Assembly (NCBI GenBank): GCA_003971905.1
Contig: RSEE01000014.1
Location: 620,001-684,000, forward strand
Length of the DNA stretch: 64,000 nucleotides
Direction: 5' to 3'
Source of the DNA: Moniliella sp. 'wahieum'
Taxonomy: Eukaryota
Below, in pieces: positions 42,132 through 54,069 of the stretch; the first letter of the stretch is position 1; each line of letters starts with the position of its first letter. Position numbers and translations under genes: made by a program. The notes beneath the pieces are model-generated. The model ran no database searches. It was not told the origin of the DNA and saw only the letters and a list, made by a program, of their open reading frames with translations.

Positions 42132-43940
42132 TCAAATGCTTGTCCGCTTGTGTAGCGTCGCCTTGTATGGCAGGCGGAGCGGCAATGTAAGGGTCTGGGC
42201 ATAAACGGGATACGCGAGATGGGACACGTCTAAGTGCACATCGAACTGGCCCAACAGCGCAGCCAGCACAGCGCAACCCTCATACATGGCCAACGTCTGC
42301 CCGAGGCAGAGCCGCGGCCCTGCATTGAAGACGTGAAAGACAAACGGGCTGAACGTCTTGAGCGACCCGTCTTCAGGGTTTAAGAAGCGCTCGGGCCGGA
42401 ACTCTTCACAGTCTTCGCCCCAAATCTCCGGCATGCGTGCCATAGTGTAATCGGACCAGAGGATAGTGGTTCCCTTTTGAATGAATATGTCGGGCAAGCG
42501 CTTGCCCGCTTTGGCCCCGGTGCCATAAGGGTCGTCGGGACCCTTTCCCCCACCTAGTTCTTGCGCGTAGGGCTGAATCACGTCATCCTCTGTCGCGTAC
42601 TTGAGATTGCGACAGACAGGTGGCCAGAGACGAAGCGCTTCGCAAAAGACGGCTTGGGTATAGGGCATGACCTTCAAGTCGTCGTATTCCATCAAACGTT
42701 GCTCCTCACCTTCCCTAAGACACGGGTCACCTCTCGTCGGAGCTTAGCCACCACATTGTCTGCGTTGCGCAGCTCGTACAAGGTCCATGTCAAACCCTGT
42801 GCGGTCGTGTCTCGTCCGGCGAGAAGAAAGTTGAGAACAACCGCCAGGAGCTCCTCCCGCCCGAGTCCTTGGTCGATAAAATGCTGAAGTAGATCCTTCC
42901 CATCCTTGCTCTGAGCGCCTTGAGACCCGCCATTAGCTTGATTCTCCATCCGCTTGTCAATTATGCGATAGCAGGCCTCCCGGATCACAACGAGGGCTTT
43001 GCGCATGTCCCGCCCTTGACGGGAAAAGCACTCGGTGAGTTTCCAAAACGGGTTGCTAAAGCGCAGGCCAGATACCTTTTGGGCAAAGTCGAAGGCAGCA
43101 GCAAAGGGTACTTCAGTTGCCAGCCATCCTCGCCTTGGAGCTTCAGAGTAACAATCAGATATGTCAGTCAGTGTTCACCCCACATGGGGGGGGCGTACGG
43201 CAAGCATCCCAAGTCGGCTCCGAATGCCATGGTCCCAAACGTATCAAGTGTATACCGAAAGAAGATGTGGCAGATTTACGGTTGAATGCTTTGCTGCCAA
43301 ATCGTCGGCCAACTGAAGCAAGACGGCAAGATCGCGCTGAACAGTGCGCTGGACATGTGTGCGAAAGTTGGAGACGGAGAACTATATACCAAAATGAGGA
43401 TGAATCAGTGTGCTTTTGAGCGGCAAACATCGTCATCTTGGAGGGGGGGAAACGTACAATATGCGAAGCCAACTTGCGCTGGCGCTTCCACGCAACTCCA
43501 TCCGCTACAAAGATGCCCGTCTCGGACAAGAGGTCGGAGAGGCATTGGCGAAAGGGGGCCCCCTTCACGTACTTGTGGAAACTAGTCTTGGAACCTTGGA
43601 CCCATGCCAACAGCTCGGGTCGGTTGATGACCGTGGTGCGGGAACCTAGGGCGAAGGGGATATGAAGTGCAAACGGCATGCCCCCGGCGCCCGTGTTGTG
43701 CTGCGCTTGGGTCATCAAGTCCAGCCCACCTTCGTTGCGACCTTGTAGTCCCCGTACAAGCTCACGCCAGTTTCCCACGAGGGCCAAGCTGCCGGGGACG
43801 ATGGCCACCCCGGGCACTCGTTTCACCCCCAGCGGCCGGTCGGGGTATAGGACCACGCCCACCAGGAGCAGCAGCACGGATGTGCTCAGAATGATCCAGG
43901 GGGACGGCGCGGAGATCGATGGGGCCAGCAGGAACGGCAT
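42132..43940 (-). CDS. Cytochrome P450 (fatty-acid/alkane hydroxylase-like); introns 43382-43457 and 43141-43198
   Basis: N-terminal anchor, GIFVADGVAWKRQRK, I-helix AGRDTT, K-helix EALR, FRPERF and heme motif FNAGPRLCLG. Confidence 0.95.
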
Positions 43941-44181
43941 TCAGGCGAATGACAGAGCCGAGAGGCAGCTTTTGGGAGAGGAGGTGGTGGAGTTCATGGC
44001 AGCAGTAGAAGCGACTTGCGTCACAAACGCATTGGCCAAAGCAAAAACCCCGCTTTGGCAACGGCCTGTGAAAGTCTGCCTCGTTTGCACATGTTTGCAC
44101 ATGAGCAATTCCACATTTCAAAGTGCAGTCCATATATGCTCTGGCCGAACCGCAGGGTGACCACCGGGAACTTAACCCGTC

Positions 44182-44452
44182 ACGCGTCAAGCTTCAAGAG
44201 CTTCAAGCTTCATCGATGATCGATGAATGACGTTAATGACGCGGAGCGGACGCGTCGGTCATTAGGCGGAGTACGTTGTATGCACAGCCAAGCGACTGCA
44301 CCTGAGTACTGAGTGCCTGAGCGCTGAGCCTGCGCCCGAGTAACTGAGCTGAGGCTCAGCGCTGAGGCGCTGAGGCCCAGCCTGAGCGGCAACCAATGGT
44401 CTCTAGTGCTAGTGGCACTGCGCGCTAGCGCTTGAAGCTTGAAGCTTGAAGC
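44182..44452. repeat. Dense mixed-core heptamer palindrome lattice in divergent promoter
   Basis: acgcgt-c-aagctt ... aagctt-c-atcgat-g-atcgat (44182-44224); tga-gtac-tga and tga-gcgc-tga (44303-44328); tga-agct-tga-agct-tga (44433-44449). Confidence 0.85.
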
Positions 44453-44686
44453 GCTGCCGTGGGGTGGATCGAGTCTTTAGTGGCACTGGTGGTACTGGTG
44501 GTACGCCAGCTGTGCGAGAGGGGCTTGGATTCGAAAAAAAGGGAATATTGAACTTGTACTGGACCGCTGACGTGTAACGTGTGACGTCCGTTGCCCATTG
44601 CCTAGGTGGCTTTTCGATCGACATGCACGGGCCACATTGGACGGGCCGCTGCCGATGGGACATCGATTGTCGGTTATCGATCGGGG

Positions 44687-44692
44687 TATAAA
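44687..44692 (+). promoter_or_regulatory. TATA box of small gene at 44759
   Basis: tataaa ~70 bp before ATG 44759. Confidence 0.55.
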
Positions 44693-44758
44693 GCTGGGGC
44701 CCACTCCAATCTCGCCCGCCTCCAGCTGCCTTCGTCACACCCAGCAAACGTTGCCGTC

Positions 44759-45161
44759 ATGCTGTCGCCCATCCGCACCGCCTTTACCAGCAGCATCGCC
44801 CTCAGCAGCTTCCGGGCTGTGGTACGCCCTGCTCTGCTCCGTCCCGCAGCAGCACCAGCGCGAGCTTTCCAGGTGAGTTTCTATAAGTGCTCTCCACCTT
44901 CTCGTCCCTCTCTCCCTCATCTCAAGATGACCCAAGCTGACGACCATTAGACTTCGCCCGTGCAATCCGGTTCCCAAGCTAATGCTGGCGACCCTGCTGG
45001 CGACCCCGAGCCGACCGAGGCAGAGGAAGATGTCCGTGGGACCAAGAGGAGTCCAACATGTCGCCTCAGGAACTTGCTCAAGAGGAGGCATTTATCCGCA
45101 TGCGGAAGTGGAGGACAGTATGACCGAGTCTGAGCAGGACTTGGATGGCGACAAGTCTTAA
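44759..45161 (+). CDS. Small hypothetical protein with mitochondrial-type presequence; intron 44873-44950
   Basis: MLSPIRTAFTSSIALSSFRAVVRPALLRPAAAPARAFQ|TSP (Arg/Ser/Ala-rich, no acidic residues), GTGAGT...CTGAC...TAG intron, then an acidic region; stop position depends on indels (45123-45161). Confidence 0.65.
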
Positions 45162-45249
45162 TATATCTCACCTGCACTGTCATCCTGCTCCTGTGTGCGC
45201 AGCTGCTCTTCCCCGTCACAGTATTTCTGTCGTATTGCAAACTCTTTTT

Positions 45250-46230
45250 CATGGGGTATAGGTGTTGGTGGGGTGCGTGGGAAACCCGTGGCGTATACTG
45301 TTCCTAGACGAATGATGACGAGGAGACCACCGTGCCTACGGCACGGTCGGCTGGGGCTTCGCCCCAGCTTGGTGCTTGCTCGCCACCTTAGCCACCGTTC
45401 CCCCGGTCCCCCCGTTCCATCCCGTCGCCACCGTAGCCACCGTTCCACGCTGGAGCCCTTCCACGCTGGAGAGAGCAAATAATATGACCGATACTCTGGC
45501 TGCGGGTGGCTGGAGGAAGTGGCGGTCGGCACGTGCCTATGACGTAAAAGATGGCACGGCGTTTCGTCCTTAATATAATCTCCCAGGCCAAGTTTGGTGC
45601 GTTGCATGACGCAGTGCGGGAGCCCATCTCCAGCTCCTACGCTCCATCCCCGACACCCATGTCCGCAACGAACCTATGGTGGAGGACGAGGATGGGAGGA
45701 GACAGAGGACGCAGCGCACCGACTACCGCGTGATGGGGCCTGGAGCACTCGGAGGATCAGGAATGGAGGTAGACCACACGCTGCGCGACACGGGATCACT
45801 GGCGGCGCACTGGAGCGCGTTCCGGAGGGTGGTGCATGAGAGCACCGCAACCCCCTTGGAACGCCGGGAGAAGGAGCTGCTTCGGATGCTTGAACAAGCA
45901 GAATGCGACAAGAACGCCAAGTACCTGGGACGCACTCAAGAGCCGTTTTTCCCCCTGGTTTTGACGACGCGAGGATACTACGGCACCAAGACGGCGGGCA
46001 AGTTGTTTGCGCATTGGAAGGAGTTGGCTACTAAGTCTCAGTGGAAATGGTTCCTCGCTCGGATGTCAACCACGTTCCTCCGTGTCCCACTCGCTTCCTA
46101 GGGTACGGGACCGGATGGCGAGAGCCGGAGGGTCCTGATATCCTGGCGATCCCCCTGTGGTTCCTTGACCTTAGTGGCGCCCCCAAGTAACTAGTAACCC
46201 CCGCAAGATGAACGGTTAGGTTTAGACGTA
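45250..46230 (+). mobile_element. Putative ~1 kb endonuclease-only element related to RLE-bearing non-LTR retrotransposons, with hairpin-rich flanks
   Basis: RLE-like ORF 45484-46101 between stem-loops at 45276-45368 and 46107-46136; boundaries inferred, no TSD identified. Confidence 0.5.
45484..46101 (+). CDS. Stand-alone restriction-like (PD-(D/E)XK) endonuclease of CRE/R2-type retroelements (two apparent indels)
   Basis: Stitched translation: MTDTLAAGG...KFGALHDAVRE...HVRNEPMV...QRTDYRV...MEVDHT...AECDKNAKY...FFPLVLTTRGYYG...; matches the RLE motif order (R)HD/N, EP, RxD, D/E, KxxKY, FxPxV..G..G. Confidence 0.7.
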
Positions 46231-46461
46231 GCGTTCCCCTGTCCCAGCCTTAAGCTTTGTCAATGAAATGGACGTGATCTAGGGATAATGATGTCTTCAC
46301 CCAAAAAATCATTTCTGTTCGCATGCTGGCGCCGCGTGACTTACGGGCCCGACACAGCCAGCCTACGTTCCACGATGGGGATATCTGAATGACTACAGCT
46401 CTCGAACTTCTCTGACAAACCCTTTTTGGACGATCGGAGCACACAAACAAAAGCATTGCGA

Positions 46462-49400
46462 TTACAAGTCCACAAGCAACTCCATATCGGCATCCCCATC
46501 GGCATCTTCGGTCTGGGCATTCAGCGCAGGGTCAATTGGGGGGACAGGCTGAACAGTGTCACTGGCGTCAGTGCCCGATCCAACCACACCGTTGGGCTCT
46601 TCAATGGTAGCAGCCCCGCCCTCAACCCCGACAGTTTGGGCAGCGTCTGAGTCTGAGACCGCCACCTCCACAACCTGCTGGTTGTCATCGAGAGTTGAGC
46701 GTGTCGTCCCTGTATCTCCCATTCTGTTGTTCCACCGCATCAGGCTCAGCGTCCTTCTCAATCGGAATATGCACGTTGTCCGGCTCAGTCGCAACCAGCT
46801 CTGCGTCAGAATCGGTCACGGCCGGCTCGGCGCTGGTATGGTTCGCGACAGACTCGGCATCTGTATCAGTCGCAACCGGCTGGTCGCCTTGTTTGACAGC
46901 AATCGGCTCGTCGCCTTGTTTGACAGCAATCGGCTCGTCGCCTTGTTTGACAGCAATCGGTTCGTCGCCTTGTTCGATAGTAACCAGCTCATGGCCTTGT
47001 TCGATAGGAACCGGCTTGTCGCCTTTTTGGGCAGCAACCGGCTCCTCACCTTCGACGGTAGCAACGGGCTCATCACCTTTTCCCATGGCAATGGGCTCGT
47101 CACCTTTTTCGGTAGCAACCGGCTCGTCACCTTTTACGGTAGCAACCAGCTCGTCACCTTTCACGACAGCAACCGGCTCGTTACCTTTCTCGATAACAAC
47201 GGGCTCGTCGCCGTTTTCGATAGCAACCGAATCGTCACCTTTCACGACAGCAACCGGCTCGTCACTTTTCTCGATAGTAACCGGCTCGTCATCTTTTTGG
47301 GTAGCAACCTCATCGTCACCTTTCTCGACAGCAATCGGTTCGTTGCCTTTCTCAATAGCAACCAGCTCTTCGCCCTCTTGGGTAGCAACCGGCTCGGCAT
47401 CTGCAGCCTTCTCGGCCTCCGCTGCGATAGGCTCAACGTCCTTGTCGACCGCACCGTGCTCTGCCATCTTCTCGTCGGGCACCGGTGGCTCTTCGTCTTG
47501 CTCGGCCGCCAGAGACACCTGCTTGGTCTCGGCCACAACAGATTCCTCAGTGGGCTCTGCCAGGTCCCGATCAACTGTCGTGGACGGGACAAGCGGATCG
47601 ACAGCCAAGGTGGTTGCCTCGTGGGTTTCAATTTCTTCCGCCACGGAGAGGGAAGTGCTTGGACCCTGAGCCACAGCCGATTCTCCTTCCAGCGCCTTGT
47701 CTGACCCAAGGGGGACCAGACCTGGGTGCAGAGGACTGGAGGTGTGGTCCATCTCCGTCGCCGGCGGATCGGGAGCAGCGGAGACTGAGCGGTCACCCGC
47801 CATCTCGGAGAGTTCGGGAGCATCAAAGACGTTCGTGGTGAATTCGATCGGGTCGGCATCAGAATGGGAGAATGCAGAGGGTTGACCGCTGGGAAAGGCA
47901 GATGTCTCGGAAGATTCGGGAACGGGGGAAAGAGGATAGCCACGCGCGGGCCAGGAAGTGGCGTCGGTCTGTGGCGGACAGAGGCCTGTGGCCAGGCCCA
48001 CCTTGTAAAAGAAGGCCCTGAGACTCAGTAATAGTTCGGGCGACAGGTCGGGCTTGATCAGTAGGTCAACCGCTGTGGGGTAGAACAAAGATGCGTAGTA
48101 AGTGAACGCGTGTCCTTCCTCTTTGATGCCTTTCCGCTCGCTTGGGACCGGAACCTTGTCGTTCATTGCCGCCAGTCCCAGGAAAATGTCGGTCACGACG
48201 GGCATCCAAGAGGCCATGTTACGCGACTGGGTTGCCGGATCAAGCAAAACGAAGTGCGAGGCAATCGATTGACCCAACGGGATGAAGCGCTCGAGTACTC
48301 GCGCTTGCGATGATACGTGCTCATCCCTTTCGTCCAGCAACATTCGCAACAAGAGGGACACCAACGTCGAGGCCGCCGTACTCTCTTGGCGAAGCAAATT
48401 AGGGAGTTGTCTCATGAATCCGAGTCTCCAAAGCGTCACACGAAGATCCTTGTCGCTGTTAAATCGCTTGGCGAAAGAATAACTCTCTTGCAGTGCCTCG
48501 AGCACTCGCAAGAGCTGGTCTGCTGGTATGCTGGTGTAAAAGTCGGCGTGCTGCAGTAGCTCTTGCAGTGTTTCAATCAAGAGTAGCTGCAAAACAGCGC
48601 ATGATGATTGCTTGAATACTTTGCGGCGCTCGGATGTCGTCAGAGGCTGGCTAATCTCCCCCGTCTGCTCTAGCCTGCGGGGAAGAGATGTAAGTTCCTC
48701 TTCCGCTGGTGAGGGAGAGCTTGTTGGTGGCGGGGCGATTAGCATCGGATCAAAGAGCTCTGATGGGGTGGTAGTGGCAAACAAGCGGATCACAGCATCG
48801 ACGATAAGGTTCCACTCGCTTTTGGTGAAGTGGACCACATTCTTCTCCAATAACAGCTGCAGGCTGCTTGTCCCGATTCGAGCTAGAGTATCATTCTCTT
48901 GACTGATGCACGACTCCAGAAGATCGAGGAGGGCGGGTAAATGGCGCTGGAGAGTAATAAAGTGACTGGTCCATAGTTCAATCAAGTTGCGAAGGGCTTG
49001 AACCATTGTTGTATTGAGCCAGACCGTGGGATCCTCTTGCAACGGCACCTGTTCACCACGGATCAGGCCAAACATGGCAAACAAGATGTCGTGCACTGTT
49101 GCATCCCAAAATGTAGACGTAAACTCGGGTGAGTACAGGGAGATAAGTTCAAAGAGTGAATCGAGAGCGACGCGACGGACCTCGAGGTCCACCGCGCTCA
49201 GTATCACTTCCAACAAAGAGTTGAACACAGGGAACCAGTAAGTGGCCTGGGCGTCCGGGCCGGTCAGGGCCGCCAACGCTTCGTCCCCCTCGTCCGCTGC
49301 TTCCGCGAGAGACGAGAGCGACGGTATCATGGATCGCAACAGTCCCACCGCTTGAAGTGAGACACGTTGAGATGGCGACTGGGCAAAGGTGGCGAGACAG

Positions 49401-52400
49401 GTGGTTAGGTCGGTGTAGCTGACTTGGACGACAGCAGCCAATTGATCGTCAAACAAGAGTTGGACCACATCGAACGCTTGCTGGGCGACCTTGTCTGTTG
49501 GTTTAAACTCAAGTGTCAGTCTTTCTATCCATTAGAGGCAGAACGGTCAAGATACGTACCCGAAGAGTCAGCAGCGGCGGCGGAAAGGATAGTAAAGATC
49601 GATGTCCAACCAGAGCGGATGTGATCCGAGCGAGCCTGAACCATTTGGACCAAGCAGTCGATAATCATCTCCCGTGTCTCGATCTCAGGAGAATGACGCA
49701 TAGCGTAGGCAAAGGGGCGAAGGAAGTCTTTTTGGAAAGCAAAGCCAGGAAGCTCTTCCTTCTCGAGGAACTTGGTAGCCAGTTGACGGAGAGAATCGAC
49801 GGCAAAATTGCTAATGGCAAGCTGGTTGGTGACGAGCACATTGTTGAAGTGTTCACCCAGGATGGCCCAAATCTGGGACCACTCCATGCGGATACGACCC
49901 ATGTTGTAGTATGATATCTCCACCAGCTTTTGCAGAGAGAAGAGCCGTGGGGATTCTGTCATCCCGCTCGATTGGATCTCTTCCCACGATACAGCACACA
50001 GGGCCTCGACAAAGTCCACGATCGCTGTGCCGGAAAGCCGGGGCGTTTGACTAAATACCTTGTCGGCTGCCACGGTCACCTCAGTGCTAGCACCGGCCTG
50101 GACCACATCCACCGCAGGAAGACGGGAAGGTTTGCTGCGCAGGTCCATATTGCTGCTGCTGAAGAGCGCCGCCAGTGCATGAGTATTGCTAAGCGGGTAG
50201 TTCTTGGAGGGCGATCGATTGGGCAAGCGCCGACCCAGGTCAGGAAGGTGGCTTTCATTCACTCCACCACTTATGAGCTGAAAACGTTCCAGTTGTGATA
50301 CGCCGGTCAGCACTTCTCTCCACGATGACTTGAGATAGTTTCCTTCCGTTAGAGCGATGCCAAGCAGGCATTTGATTGCCTCAATGTGCTTCGGCTGCAT
50401 CTCCGCCAAGTGTTGAGGAAGGTGAACTTGGCCAGGGTGGTAACAAAGGCGTTGCGTTCGAGCTCCAGATCAAAAAGGCACGATGTGTGAATAGCGTCCT
50501 TGAAGGCAGTAAGGCAGAGATGAACAATGACCAAATCACTTGTTTCCTGCATCGGGCCAGAGAGTCCAGCCAGGATCGGCATCCAAGCCACCTCGAACAT
50601 GGGCTTAACGTGATCCATGTGCGTTGCGGAGAAGAAGCGCTCCACTGCCGCGCGTTGCTCGGGGCCAACCCTGCGCCGGGCCCGTACCATGGAACGAAAG
50701 AGTGCCTCGGTCTTGGTGGCCATACCCTCCGATTGAGCTTCGTACGCCGCGCGCTGGGGTCCCGTCCCACCCCCGCGATGAACCCTGCAATGGCTGGTGC
50801 AGGGGATGGAGGCGCCACTTCGTCCCGCATCTTGATCTCGTTGGCGACAATGCTCTCGTAGACCTCGCGCTGGTAGTCTTCCGGGAGAGATTGGCCATCA
50901 TCAATGCCTTTATTGTTACGGATGAAATCTTGCAGCGACATGCGCTGCTTCACTTGGGGATTGTGGGCATCCGTGTTGAGGAGGATGATGGAATAAGCAA
51001 AGACATAGGCGGTGTCGGCGGTAGCAAAGACGCCCGGGTTGCCGAGCACGTAGCGCTCGGCAAATTTGAGCATGAACCGGTCGATCATTTGCGCCTCGCC
51101 GGGCAGACGGAATGTTTGGAGGTAACGGCGCAATGCCGTCAAAAAGTGGAAGTCTTTGAAGTTCATCAGGTCTACAAAAGCATGCATGGTGGCAATGTGA
51201 CTGGGATCACCCGAGCCAAGGTATTCGCCAATCCGGGCCTTGTTGAGTCCATCAGCATACAATAGGAACCGGGCGATGTCCTTGGGCTCGGCCGAGGGAA
51301 TAAACCGATTCTGGACCAGGAAAGCGATACCCCGTTTGGGTTTCTCGTTAAACATGCGGATTCCCTCCAGTAGCATTGTCTTCCGCGCTTTGGCTGACTC
51401 GAACCGGGACGGATCATCCTCCTGCTGAAGGGGATCGGGCGCGGGATAAGTGGAGAGGAAACCGCACTTGCCTCTACTGGGCTTTCCGGCTTTACTGCTG
51501 AATCGAGGCTGGCCCTCGGGGAAGAGGCAGACTCCTCCTCAATTGTGCTTCGGCTGGCCCATTGGACCAGGGAGTGGAGCACAGCAACCAAGCATTCGAG
51601 ACTTTGACGTTTGAGGTGGGCTTCGATCGGCATACTGACTTCCTCCGCCGTGTCCGTGTGGTGAGGCTGCAGACCAAGCGCTGCCAAGCCTGGTTCATCA
51701 CCCTTTTGGAGCGCCAACAAGGGAAGGGGCTCGGGAGGACCCAGCGACGTTCCTAGCTGGGTCTGACTGATCTTGGACACGATGTTGACCAAGCGCTCGT
51801 ACACATTCTCCAATGCGGCCCGGTCACAGTCGTAGTTGATGTACACCTCCACCAATGCCTGGGGATTTTGACACAGGCGGAGTAACACCGAAAGCAAGAT
51901 GGACTTTTGCGTTGCCGTGGATGTACGCATCTCGAGGATTGGCAGGAAAATTTCGTTGAAAAGGACCTCGAGCTCTTTCTGGAAGCGATGGAAGTAGGTC
52001 AGTCGATGCATAGAGAATCTCTAAACGACGCTCGGTGTAGGGAACGTACTTTGACAAAGGGGCGCAGACCTTCAAGTGTCAACCAAAAGATCTCAACCGC
52101 CAGTTGGAAGACTTGATTGACCGAACTAACCGCGTTGCGGCTGAGCGACAAGAAGATGTATTGTTTGACGGCATGGATGAAAGACGAATACTCTTCGTTC
52201 GTGTGCGAGCGGATCTTCACACTCGGACTGGCAAAGATCGCCATATGGTGTTTGAGGATGACATAAATCAAATGAAGTGATAAGATCTTGCTTCGCACCC
52301 CCTGGCTTTTGCTGTCGCGCTCGTCATCAGCACTTAAAGACTTCATGGAAAGTTTGCACAGCGTGCGCAACACAAGGAAAGCGTCCTTAATGTAAAGCTC

Positions 52401-54069
52401 TTGTAGGTCGATTCCAGCGCCAACCATAGAGGCTGGATCTCGCTACCAGCTTGAAAAGACTTGCGCGCCTCGAGAGCTTGAATCGTCGATGGTTCGTCAC
52501 CACTATCGGGCGCGAGGGTGGCACGAGATGCAGCTGGAGACAAGGAAGTTAAGGTGGGCCGCGGAGACGGAGGGGCTGTGGAGGTCGACGGCCCCGGAGA
52601 AATGCGGGAGAAGACATGGTGCACCATCTGAGTCAGGCTGGCTTGGGCCACCGCCTGGTTAGCCGTGATACGCGATGAGAGAAAAATGTTGTAGACGGTG
52701 CGAATGGCCTTGAGAAGGCCGCTTTGATGGATATGGCTCGTGCCACTGACCACCATCATGAGAAGGGCCTTGATAATCTGAAGCTCGGTCTGTGCATCCG
52801 ACGATTCGGTAAATGCGTCACACACCGTGTTCGTCACAATGTCCGCCAGGGATATCGGCGCCGACTGGCCGGCTGAAGCGTGGCGAACGGATCAGGTTCA
52901 GCAAAAAAGTCAAAAGAGATGAGCTTGCCAATACAGTCGATGGAAGCCGGGACAAGAACATGGCTGCCAGTCAAACAAGCAAGCCGAAGAGCTCTAAAAT
53001 AACTCGCGGATCAAGCTTCGTATTGGGAAATGCTGAAGCTGGGGAGTCATTGGTAGAAGTTGGGCAGAAGAGCCGGTGGGGGCAGCCGAATTGGCCTTCT
53101 GAGCCATAACCAATGCGTCATCAGAAGCTTTCTTGAGCTCTTCGTTCTTGCGTGCCTCCTTGCTCTTGTTGATTGTCTCCAGAGCTGTTACGACAAAGAC
53201 CAATGATCCACGGCTAAGGTTGGCATGTGACGGAGGGGCAGCGATGCTGACGGTAGATGTTGTCGAAACTGACTGAGAAAGGCCAGGGACACCATTAGAG
53301 GGAGGATGGCTTTCACCTGTAGTTTGACCGTTCGCTCCGCTGGCAGTAGGGGGCGGGAGATTTGCTTGTCAGCAGCCACATCCTTGCTTGCCTCCACTGG
53401 AACAACAGGGCCTTGGCCTCATGCACGACAACCTGTGGGGAGCACCTGGCACTTTGTTGGGCATATCGTCTGCCGCCTTTTCTTCACCAGGTTTGGTTGT
53501 CATTGAGATTGAATCGGGCGCTGGTGGTGCCTCAACAGGAGGTGCCTCGCTTTTCCCCACTTGCGTGTTGGCCGCTGGGGCGGAAGAGGAGGTACTTCAA
53601 CCGAAGGAGATGCGGGGCTTGAAATCAGCACCGTGGGGGTATCCCCTACCGGAGGGATTCCATCTTCCTTGCTTGGTTCGGGCCCTGGAGGAAGGTCATG
53701 TTCAGGCTCGCTCGAAGGAGGAGGCTCGATGGCAGGGTGTCCAAGGGGGCGGCGGGGGCCACGGTGGGGGCGGGTTCATCGGTCAAGTCCAACAGCGAGC
53801 CGGTGGTGGAGAGAGTCTGGCGCAGGTGTAGGAGCCGAGACGGGGACCAGATCAGGAGTGGTTTCCAGGCCAGATGCAGGCGCCGACGCAGAGGCAGGGG
53901 CGGGGACAGTGGGTGAGTCCAGCGCGGGGACGGGGCCGGAGGCGGCTGGGACGGAGTGGGATCGGCAGCCGGCTTGGCGGGAAGAGGGTGGCGTGGAGAC
54001 ACCGTCGGGACCAGGCGCAGGCGGCGGGTGGCCGTGCTCGGCGGCAGGCCCGGCGGTGGCGGAGTGCAT
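46462..54069 (-). CDS. SEC7: Sec7/BIG-family ARF guanine nucleotide exchange factor; introns 51979-52049 and 49495-49559
   Basis: DCB/HUS motifs (ELQIIKAL, LLKAIRTVYNIFL, KDAFLVLRTLCKLSMK, YINYDCD), Sec7 domain FRLPGEAQMIDRF and AYSIILLNTDAHNPQVK, HDS motifs (FSLQKLVEISYYNMGRIR, FQKDFLRPF, QENDTLARIG, QLPNLLRQE). Ends at 46685 in one frame or 46462 after a likely shift. Confidence 0.95.
46727..47401 (-). repeat. Coding minisatellite: 25 x 27 bp (nonapeptide GDEPVAxEK) in Sec7 C-terminus
   Basis: 675 bp = 25 in-register units from DAEPVATQE to DAEPDAVEQ, including GDEPIAVKQ x3. Confidence 0.93.

What the first reader, a model, noticed from the sequence alone, without database searches (positions are those of the whole stretch)
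45484..46101. Stand-alone retroelement-type restriction-like endonuclease with its own ATG and no reverse transcriptase or zinc knuckle
Seen: stitching two 1-bp shifts gives a ~205 aa ORF from ATG 45484 with the ordered motifs HDAVR, VRNEP, RTD-x14-EVD, KNAKY and FFPLVLTTRGYYG. Established: this order matches the C-terminal RLE (PD-(D/E)XK) domain of CRE/R2-clade non-LTR retrotransposons (fungal examples Cnl1, MoTeR), where it follows an RT and a CCHC knuckle. Here the ~35 aa upstream have no Cys/His knuckle, and only ~320 bp separate the ORF from the previous gene, so there is no room for an RT. Inference: either a 5'-truncated insertion that kept its catalytic residues, or a compact nuclease-plus-structured-RNA unit (non-autonomous element or domesticated site-specific nuclease). 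This is the best candidate for an undescribed system in the window.
Basis: partly seen in the sequence, partly recalled or inferred. Interest (0 to 1): 0.8.

Follow-up and report, generated by a model that had tools for sequence, protein, structure and literature searches.

The report
Broken-off retrotransposon nuclease tail
This is the tail end of a fungal jumping gene (a non-LTR retrotransposon) that kept only its DNA-cutting domain when it was copied in incompletely, so it is ordinary transposon debris and not a new stand-alone nuclease system.

Summary
The nuclease homology is real. Window 45581-46190 (+) matches the C-terminal restriction-like endonuclease (RLE) of RT-bearing non-LTR retrotransposon proteins (24 HMMER hits; 7 carry RVT_1 upstream of the match; nearest hit 76% identical). 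All family-invariant catalytic residues are kept. The AlphaFold model's seven best solved-structure matches are all R2 RLE domains (Z 7.2-7.9).

The "stand-alone gene with its own ATG" is not supported:
- Homology begins abruptly at 45581, directly after where relatives carry the CCHC knuckle.
- ATG 45484 lies in unrelated upstream sequence and reads ATC in 2 of 2 other copies.
- The frame is broken by two 1-nt deletions (about 45626 and 46087) that other copies lack. These may be assembly errors.
- Related copies are multi-copy, differ mostly at synonymous sites, and at least one extends further 5'.

Best reading (about 0.75): a 5'-truncated, dead-on-arrival copy of a CRE-like (Cnl1/MoTeR/FoTeR-type) element, lying between two convergent host genes.

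Still open: no RT-bearing parent of this exact lineage was seen, and two other records also break at 45582-45585.

The scan noted similar RLE debris elsewhere in this genome (e1-7727318, e1-7648633), but no sequence look-alike of this copy.

The parts
45581..45627 (+). First homologous stretch (frame 2): SQAKFGALHDAVREPI. It holds the LHD version of the RHD/N motif and begins right after the position of the CCHC knuckle in relatives.
   Evidence: tblastn places P0001 residues 83-131 on 45581-45727 in frame 2. Alignment A1. Nothing upstream is homologous.
45626..45627 (+). Frame break 1: the window lacks one T that the other copies have, which shifts frame 2 to frame 1.
   Evidence: read-laying table 4: T put in behind 45626 in 2 of 2 X1 contigs and 1 of 1 X2 contig. 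With that T the reading is EPILQLL, as in P0001.
45628..46087 (+). RLE core (frame 1): E-P, RTD, E-V-D, K..KY and FFPLV..RG motifs.
   Evidence: HMMER hits. Family-invariant columns D55, K101, Y105, F113, P115, G122 and near-invariant E21, P22, R36, T37, D38, E53, W136 are all kept. AF2 model pLDDT 84.9. R2 RLE domains are the top structural matches.
46087..46088 (+). Frame break 2: the window lacks one base that other copies have, which shifts frame 1 to frame 3.
   Evidence: read-laying table 4: A put in behind 46087 in one X1 contig (depth 18.9 of 38.4), and T behind 46088 in the X2 contig. P0001 reads on through this point.
46089..46190 (+). C-terminal tail of the element's ORF (frame 3): TRFLGYGTGWREPEGPDILAIPL..., with the stop at 46188-46190.
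   Evidence: tblastn places P0001 residues 255-277 on 46089-46157 in frame 3 at 78% identity. Alignment A1.
46191..46250 (+). 3' untranslated end of the element. It reaches at least 46229; the true end is about 46230-46293 and is not fixed.
   Evidence: The X2 contig ends at 46229. An X1 contig spans 46235. X1 depth is 23 in bin 46217-46293 and 0 in the next bin. Indels that are not multiples of 3 appear only from 46156 on.
46187..46193 (+). A 7-nt insertion private to this copy, giving TAA-CTAG-TAA just after the stop codon.
   Evidence: read-laying table 4: 7 nt (or 5+2 nt) left out in all X1 contigs there (depth 19.8 of 19.8) and in the X2 contig.
45484..45486 (+). The ATG claimed as the gene's own start. 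It lies outside the homologous region and is not conserved.
   Evidence: 45486 G>C in 2 of 2 X1 contigs (depth 11.6 of 11.6). It is separated from the homologous frame by stops at 45571 and 45607.
45293..45553 (.). A separate repeated sequence upstream, holding two perfect 8-bp hairpins (45329-45347 and 45350-45368) and GCCACCGTTCC-type short repeats. Whether it is related to the RLE fragment is unknown.
   Evidence: X1 contigs cover it. One contig diverges downstream of 45553. One joint, 45489 back to 45318, shows a tandem arrangement elsewhere. Repeats and hairpins.

Best explanation
Window 45581 to about 46250 is a 5'-truncated copy of a site-specific-type non-LTR retrotransposon. Its full-length relatives encode N-terminal zinc fingers, a reverse transcriptase, a CCHC knuckle and a C-terminal restriction-like (PD-(D/E)XK) endonuclease.

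Such copies arise when target-primed reverse transcription starts at the 3' end of the element RNA and stops early. Only the 3' part is then inserted (inferred mechanism, established for this class). Here copying stopped just after the knuckle-coding part, leaving the RLE core, the ORF tail and the 3' UTR.

The fragment lies in the spacer between two convergently transcribed host genes. It has no conserved start codon and carries private changes, so it is most likely non-functional debris.

Shown: homology, fold, the truncation point, the absence of RT and knuckle, multi-copy relatives, and purifying selection in the family.
Inferred: the truncation mechanism and the lack of function.
For: - Sequence homology: 24 HMMER hits. 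Seven of the 24 carry RVT_1 N-terminal of the matched RLE, 5 of them above Pfam's cut-off (P0003, P0005, P0009, P0010, P0021) and 2 below it (P0014, P0016).
- Architecture: alignment A1 shows zinc fingers, RT, WLSxIP..LRLSD..RTLC, CCHC, RHE, EP, RTD, ExD, KxxKY in the full-length relatives. The window joins only at the RHE-equivalent position.
- Motif spacing fits the published REL formula for the SLACS/CRE, MoTeR and FoTeR groups (PMC12857005, section 16, read in full).
- Fold: AF2 pLDDT 84.9, pTM 0.77. Foldseek's six best rows are all R2 proteins, best E 1.8e-3. VIA's seven best rows are all R2 RLE domains (Z 7.2-7.9, rmsd 3.1-3.6 over 118-125 residues), followed by the Prp8 endonuclease-like domain at Z 6.3.
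- Truncation: homology starts at 45581 and nothing upstream matches. P0001, 76% identical, carries 82 more residues including the knuckle.
- Family behaviour: 59 contigs of metagenome run X1 lie on 45293-46293 at 80-100% likeness. Summed depth rises from 16 to 95 towards the 3' end, which is only a weak hint because depth is per contig. One contig (depth 9.7, about four times the 2.5 of a flanking single-copy contig) runs on for 94 letters unlike the window upstream of 45582.
- Selection: 16 of 23 listed substitutions fall on codon position 3 (15 synonymous, 8 not; p=4e-4), as expected for copies of an active coding lineage.
- Private damage in this copy: two 1-nt deletions, and L for the family's Q in KYQGRT (45926 T>A in all other contigs).
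- Precedent: truncated copies outnumber full-length ones in the related FoTeR family, for example 4 full and 51 truncated in one strain (PMC12857005, passage in section 20).
Against: - No RT-bearing parent of this exact lineage was seen. Only P0001 is close (76%); RT-bearing relatives are 30-38% identical. 'Longer' searches with the window ORF and with P0001 found nothing (weak evidence by the tool's own note). Both metagenome scans were empty.
- The 635-nt X2 contig covers exactly 45585-46229, and an X1 contig also changes at 45582. A shared 5' boundary is not what random truncation predicts, unless those records are branch points between a longer copy and an orthologous truncated one.
- No 3' tail or convincing target-site duplication was found; the only candidate is a 6-nt CCTTAA at 45569 and 46249, read.
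- The two frame breaks may be assembly errors. The neighbouring Sec7-family gene is split into at least 5 overlapping ORF pieces, and an X1 contig with 0 substitutions over 46655-46868 still differs by 2 gap letters. 'Pseudogene' therefore rests on the missing knuckle, RT and start codon, not on the frameshifts.
- The RLE tree leaves the window+P0001 pair on a long, unresolved branch.
Confidence: 0.75

Rival explanations
1. It is an internally deleted or chimeric non-autonomous derivative. The upstream repeat (45293-45553) would be the 5' part (promoter or UTR monomer) of the same element, joined to the 3' 650 bp by a deletion. The unit could then be transcribed and mobilised in trans by full-length elements, as the SIDE derivatives of R2 are.
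For: - The upstream stretch is itself repeated in run X1, and one joint (45489 back to 45318) shows it in tandem elsewhere, as 5' monomers of some LINEs are (the LINE comparison is recalled).
- It holds two perfect 8-bp hairpins and folds marginally better than shuffles (z -1.93, 5 of 200 shuffles as good).
- Breaks recur at 45582-45585 in two other records.
- Precedent: R2 SIDEs (PMC3414825; search listing and abstract start only).
Against: - Listed contigs do not share the junction: one diverges downstream of 45553 and another upstream of 45582 (only 12 of 64 pieces were shown).
- No link between the upstream repeat and any retrotransposon could be shown. tblastn with 24 relatives found nothing there, and no ribozyme or other Rfam family matched at E<=1 in 44000-47500 apart from a chance-level miRNA hit.
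Confidence: 0.11
2. That would explain a shared 5' boundary.
For:
- Recurring boundary at 45582-45585.
- An adjacent unrelated repeat with hairpins.
Against: - No Helitron-type ends stood out when I read 45290-45330 and 46180-46300 by eye. CTAG sites at 45304 and 46279 are not followed by T, and the one at 46191 is the private 7-nt insertion.
- No second copy in the window.
- No look-alike in the scan's index.
Confidence: 0.08
3. It is a working stand-alone nuclease gene. The frame breaks would be assembly errors, translation would start at ATG 45551 (frame 2, ten codons before the homology), and the host or an element would keep the RLE-only protein for site-specific cutting.
For: - All catalytic residues are kept and the fold is confidently predicted.
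- Substitutions among copies are mostly synonymous.
- The assembly shows indel problems nearby.
- No RT-bearing close relative was found.
Against: - It is multi-copy with many variants (59 contigs), unlike a host gene.
- Synonymous bias is equally expected for copies of an active element.
- It lacks the CCHC knuckle that every longer relative has next to the RLE.
- It carries a private L for a conserved Q.
- The second frame break is not a simple homopolymer slip and sits beside a private substitution (46091).
Confidence: 0.05

Closest known systems
Fungal CRE-group non-LTR retrotransposons (Cnl1 of Cryptococcus, MoTeR1 of Magnaporthe, FoTeR of Fusarium) and their 5'-truncated copies
   Same: - Same protein plan in the full-length relatives: N-terminal zinc fingers, RT, CCHC knuckle, C-terminal REL/RLE.
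- Same motif order and near-identical spacing to the published formula: RHD-x20-E ... R/KPD-x12-14-D/E, here LHD-x20-E-x14-RTD-x14-E (PMC12857005, section 16).
- Truncated copies are the majority form in FoTeRs (PMC12857005, section 20 passage).
   Different: - L replaces R in RHD, and T replaces P/A in R/KPD.
- This copy sits between two ordinary genes, not in a telomere repeat array. Only a 12-nt telomere-like GGTTAGGTTTAG lies inside its 3' UTR.
- Clade membership was not tested by phylogeny against named references; none was on hand.
- Identity to the RT-bearing relatives is only 30-38%.
R2 retrotransposon protein, C-terminal RLE domain (solved: 8gh6, 8ibw/8iby/8ibz, 9dou, 9nl2, 9nl3)
   Same: Best structural matches of the model: Z 7.2-7.9, 118-125 residues aligned, mapping onto R2Bm residues 964-1099. 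Same PD-(D/E)XK core.
   Different: Sequence identity is 15-22%. No sequence-level PDB hit even with a family profile. R2 targets 28S rDNA. The Z values are middling by the tool's own calibration.
SIDE elements (short internally deleted non-autonomous derivatives of R2)
   Same: A short RT-less unit that keeps the 3' end of an RLE-type non-LTR element (PMC3414825; listing and abstract start only).
   Different: Here most of what is kept is coding sequence, no ribozyme was detected, and no shared deletion junction was shown.

Membership tests
RLE (PD-(D/E)XK) domain of site-specific non-LTR retrotransposons | Restriction-endonuclease-like fold closest to solved R2 RLE domains | tested here: met
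   AF2 pLDDT 84.9. The seven best VIA rows are all R2 RLE domains, Z 7.2-7.9. The six best Foldseek rows are all R2. The Z values are middling, but the top rows are coherent and span the whole domain.
RLE (PD-(D/E)XK) domain of site-specific non-LTR retrotransposons | Ordered motifs RHD/N, E, R/KPD, D/E and K..Y with the published spacing | tested here: met
   LHD-x20-E-x14-RTD-x14-E(V)D, then K..KY, read. This lies within the ranges given in PMC12857005 section 16. Family-invariant residues are kept.
RLE (PD-(D/E)XK) domain of site-specific non-LTR retrotransposons | CCHC zinc knuckle directly N-terminal of the nuclease core | tested here: not met
   The knuckle is present in P0001 and the longer relatives. 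It is absent from the window: homology starts after it and upstream DNA has no counterpart.
Autonomous non-LTR retrotransposon (RT + RLE in one ORF) | Reverse transcriptase domain upstream in the same element | tested here: not met
   No RT remnant in the 64-kb window by tblastn with 24 relatives or by Pfam on 55 ORFs. RT is present in 7 of the 24 relatives.
CRE clade (Cnl1, MoTeR, FoTeR, SLACS, CRE1/2) | Phylogenetic placement of the RT or REL domain inside the clade | not tested
   No named reference sequences were available. My tree of 25 RLE rows holds only unnamed relatives and leaves the window+P0001 pair on a long, unresolved branch.
CRE clade (Cnl1, MoTeR, FoTeR, SLACS, CRE1/2) | Insertion into a specific repeated target (telomere repeats, spliced-leader genes) | tested here: inconclusive
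   This copy lies between two convergent genes with no telomere array beside it. One copy cannot define the family's target.
5'-truncated (dead-on-arrival) non-LTR copy | Colinear with the parent's 3' end, stopping abruptly at a point inside the ORF | tested here: met
   The match runs from P0001 residue 83 to its end, plus the 3' UTR shared with the X2 contig to 46229. Homology ends abruptly at 45581.
5'-truncated (dead-on-arrival) non-LTR copy | Other copies of the family with different, longer 5' extents | tested here: inconclusive
   For: P0001 has 82 more residues, and one X1 contig continues 94 letters beyond 45582. Against: the X2 contig stops at 45585. The whole genome could not be searched.
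5'-truncated (dead-on-arrival) non-LTR copy | Target-site duplication and a defined 3' end | tested here: inconclusive
   Only a 6-nt CCTTAA candidate (45569 and 46249), which is within chance. The 3' end is bracketed to 46230-46293.
SIDE-type internally deleted non-autonomous element | A deletion junction shared by several copies, with the parent's 5' end retained | tested here: inconclusive
   The listed contigs diverge at 45553 and at 45582 and do not bridge the junction, but only 12 of 64 pieces were shown. The parent's 5' end is unknown.

The most novel reading that the evidence does not exclude
The window/P0001/X1/X2 lineage could be an RT-less RLE module that persists and multiplies as a discrete unit of about 650-700 bp with a fixed 5' end at 45582. 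It would be either a coding, non-autonomous passenger of a CRE-like retrotransposon or a nuclease gene kept by smut-related fungi.

Three observations leave this open:
- No RT-bearing close relative exists in about 15 billion public proteins.
- Two independent records break at 45582-45585.
- Copies differ mainly at synonymous sites.
Probability: 0.08. Interest if true: 0.6.

Novelty: new member of a known kind. Interest (0 to 1): 0.12.

Why it matters
It matters little in itself. It adds one truncated copy and an apparently undescribed, divergent lineage (LHD/RTD motif variants) to the known fungal RLE-type non-LTR retrotransposons. It also shows that such a family was active in smut-related fungi.

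Its practical value is as a caution. RLE-only open frames in fungal assemblies are usually 5'-truncated retrotransposon tails, and in this error-prone assembly single-base frame breaks cannot be read as biology.

Only if the shared 45582 boundary proves to be a true element end in an RT-less family would it become an interesting case of a coding, non-autonomous retroelement or a domesticated nuclease.

Tried and rejected
- Whole-genome copy count: no genome is held for this window.
- Pfam on the three frame pieces: nothing relevant.
- PDB by sequence, single sequence and 25-row profile: no hit.
- Second copies in the window by blastn and tblastn: none.
- Rfam at E<=1 over 44000-47500: only a chance-level mir-143 hit at 44338-44392, and no ribozyme.
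- JGI metagenome scans with P0001 and with the two-row alignment A4: pattern hits but no relative. The 25-row alignment was too divergent to make patterns.
- Sequencing runs: no RNA holder listed. The two holders each had a small share, 0.11 of the words.
- 'Longer' protein searches: empty.
- ESM Atlas: only unnamed eukaryotic 'hypothetical protein' clusters of 140-180 aa.
- Scan index by sequence, protein and DNA: no look-alike. Nothing noted near this place.
- Structured-RNA flanks: the 3' flank folds no better than shuffles and the 5' flank only marginally better.
- A 9-nt direct repeat, CTTAATATA, at 45157 and 45570 was considered as a target duplication. I rejected it: about 3 such pairs are expected by chance in 1.3 kb (my estimate), and a relative's contig (run X5) runs 42 nt past the first copy.
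- Helitron ends and solo-LTR ends (TG..CA with a 5-bp duplication) were looked for by eye and not found.
- The paper on Microstromatales telomeres (PMC13234504; passages only) has nothing on such elements.

Full report
**What is there**

The window is fungal-type DNA of about 58% G+C. Earlier notes of this scan call the organism a smut-related fungus, and no whole genome is held for it.

The finding lies in a 1.3-kb spacer between two convergent genes. A small unknown ORF ends at 45161 on the + strand. A Sec7/BIG-type ArfGEF gene on the - strand has its last ORF piece ending at 46462. Other neighbours are ordinary housekeeping genes, including a P450, a nitronate monooxygenase and an ABC1 kinase. 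None of the 55 ORFs scanned carries an RT or transposon Pfam domain.

**Check of the observation**

- The 163-aa open frame 45610-46098 has no Pfam hit and no PDB sequence hit.
- HMMER against 1.84 billion representative proteins gave 24 hits at E<=1e-3. One is close: P0001, 279 aa, 76% identical, E 6.2e-71. The other 23 are at 26-38% identity, E 6.1e-09 to 7.2e-04.
- Seven of the 24 carry an RVT_1 match N-terminal of the aligned stretch, 5 above Pfam's cut-off and 2 below it.
- In the full-length relatives (1015-1301 aa) the order is N-terminal zinc fingers, RT, a conserved WLSxIP..LRLSD..RTLC linker, a CCHC knuckle, then RHE, EP, RTD, ExD, KxxKY, FxPLV..GG and HWR up to the C-terminus.
- The window keeps every family-invariant or near-invariant residue of the nuclease part.
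- Its spacing, LHD-x20-E-x14-RTD-x14-E, fits the REL formula published for the SLACS/CRE, MoTeR and FoTeR groups (PMC12857005, section 16, read in full).

**Fold**

- With the 25-row alignment, AlphaFold2 gave a confident model (pLDDT 84.9, pTM 0.77).
- Foldseek's six best PDB rows are all R2 retrotransposon proteins. The best E is only 1.8e-3, with probabilities of 0.66-1.00.
- The VIA second look puts seven R2 entries on top (Z 7.2-7.9, rmsd 3.1-3.6 over 118-125 residues), mapped to the RLE domain (R2Bm 964-1099).
- Next come the Prp8 endonuclease-like domain (Z 6.3) and the influenza PA endonuclease (Z 6.0).
- The Z values are middling by the tool's calibration. The ranking is coherent, though, and agrees with the sequence evidence.

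**Where the homology starts and stops**

- tblastn places P0001 residues 83-131 on 45581-45727 (frame 2), 99-276 on 45628-46182 (frame 1) and 255-277 on 46089-46157 (frame 3).
- P0001 residues 1-82, the linker and CCHC knuckle, have no counterpart in 45162-45580. The best local score is 26, against 28.3 +/- 3.6 for shuffled queries.
- The copy thus begins exactly after the knuckle and continues through the ORF's tail to the stop at 46188-46190.
Linking it to the nuclease needs a frame shift that no relative supports.
A third one near 46087, and the last 34 codons, were missed.

**Other copies**

No RNA-holding run was listed. Two DNA or unknown-type runs each held a small share, 0.11 of the words.

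Laid at 80% likeness or more, the results were:
- A food-metagenome run (X1) gave 59 contigs over 45293-46293, spread over the likeness classes 99+, 95-99, 90-95 and under 90 as 16/17/16/10. This is a multi-copy, variable family.
- A run of a related organism (X2) gave one 635-nt contig covering exactly 45585-46229 (24 substitutions, 14 gap letters), plus a more distant paralogue sharing only 45956-45997.
- All contigs that span the sites have an extra T behind 45626 (2 of 2 X1 contigs, 1 of 1 X2).
- An extra base at 46087/46088 is seen in 1 X1 contig (depth 18.9 of 38.4) and in the X2 contig. Both frame breaks are therefore private to the window.
- A 3-nt in-frame indel sits at 45810. Indels that are not multiples of three appear only from 46156 on.
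- Of the 23 listed substitutions in the frame-1 part, 16 are at codon position 3 and 15 are synonymous (p=4e-4). Only 40 of 62 differences were listed by the tool.
- Base 45486 is C in 2 of 2 other contigs, so the claimed ATG reads ATC there.
- The window's L in KYLGRT is Q in every other contig, as in P0001 and two RT-bearing relatives.

**Interpretation**

The simplest account is a 5'-truncated non-LTR retrotransposon copy. Target-primed reverse transcription starts at the RNA's 3' end and often stops early, leaving 3' fragments. This is established for the class, as stated in the abstract of PMC4370867 (listing only). In the related FoTeR family, truncated copies outnumber full-length ones (PMC12857005, section 20 passage).

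Three observations support it:
- The synonymous bias among copies is what an active, coding element lineage produces.
- Summed X1 depth rises about five-fold from the 5' to the 3' part. This is a weak hint, since depth is per contig.
- One X1 contig at about four times the single-copy depth continues 94 letters beyond 45582 with sequence unlike the window, as a longer element copy would.

The fragment lacks RT, knuckle and a conserved start codon, and it is probably inert.

**Caveats told in full**

1. The frame breaks may be assembly errors. The adjacent Sec7-family gene is split into at least five overlapping ORF pieces, with a Pfam domain running to the very edge of one piece. An X1 contig with 0 substitutions over 46655-46868 still has 2 gap letters. 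Earlier notes of this scan also call the assembly error-rich. If both breaks are errors, an ORF of about 213 codons would run from ATG 45551, ten codons before the homology, to 46190.
2. I found no RT-bearing parent of this exact lineage. Only distant RT-bearing relatives exist in the public collections, and both metagenome scans were empty.
3. Two other records break at 45582-45585, which random truncation does not predict. These could be branch points between a longer copy and an orthologue of this truncated one, or they could mark a true element end.
4. I found no tail or convincing target-site duplication.
5. The RLE tree leaves the window+P0001 pair on a long, unresolved branch.

**The upstream stretch**

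Region 45293-45553 is a separate repeat.
- X1 contigs cover it. One diverges downstream of 45553. One joint (45489 back to 45318) shows a tandem arrangement of a 172-nt unit elsewhere.
- It holds two perfect 8-bp hairpins and short GCCACCGTTCC-type repeats.
- It folds only marginally better than shuffles (z -1.93). The 3' flank does not (z +0.76).
- No Rfam family, ribozymes included, matched it.

Whether it is unrelated debris or the 5' part of the same element (a SIDE-like internal deletion, PMC3414825; listing and abstract start only) cannot be decided without the genome.

**Comparison and verdict**

The fragment works like, and descends from, the RLE of site-specific non-LTR retrotransposons. 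By motif pattern it is nearest the fungal Cnl1/MoTeR/FoTeR group, but clade membership was not tested phylogenetically. As it stands it is not a complete member of that domain family, because the knuckle and RT are absent.

It is a new member of a known kind and an ordinary finding. The scan has already met similar RLE debris elsewhere in this genome (e1-7727318 and e1-7648633; not checked by me), although no sequence look-alike of this copy was returned.

Noticed in passing
window 46187-46197: This copy has a private 7-nt insertion giving TAA-CTAG-TAA right after the element's stop codon. All other contigs covering it (X1 depth 19.8 of 19.8, plus the X2 contig) lack the 7 nt. The inserted CTAGTAA reads as 2 bases of reverse complement plus 5 copied bases. 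This matches the '7-bp T-N-A plus 4-bp palindrome' scars that earlier notes describe genome-wide.
   Followed up: partly
window 45293-45553: A repeat of unknown kind with two perfect 8-bp GC-rich hairpins (45329-45347, 45350-45368) and short GCCACCGTTCC-type repeats. It is multi-copy in run X1, and a 172-nt unit (45318-45489) stands in tandem in another copy.
   Followed up: partly
window 46465-52891 (- strand): The Sec7/BIG-type ArfGEF gene is split into at least five ORF pieces that abut or overlap in different frames. For example, 46688-49531 and 49528-50469 overlap by 4 nt, with the HDS domain running to the very edge of the upstream piece. An X1 contig with 0 substitutions over 46655-46868 has 2 gap letters. 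This points to single-base indel errors in the assembly.
   Followed up: partly
window 46900-47700 (- strand): The C-terminal part of the Sec7-family ORF holds a long run of imperfect 8-residue repeats of the type KGDEPVAx, seen in the translation. It is also visible as long alternative open frames on the + strand.
   Followed up: no
window 42135-43940 (- strand): A cytochrome P450 gene appears as three consecutive ORF pieces in different frames that overlap by 49 and 8 nt. Two of the pieces match the Pfam p450 model. The splits could be short introns or further frame errors.
   Followed up: no
run X2, contig matching window 45956-45997 only: The related organism A holds a second, much more divergent RLE paralogue that shares only the 42-nt stretch coding the FPLV..RG motif (tables 7 and 8). 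More than one RLE lineage therefore exists in these fungi.
   Followed up: no
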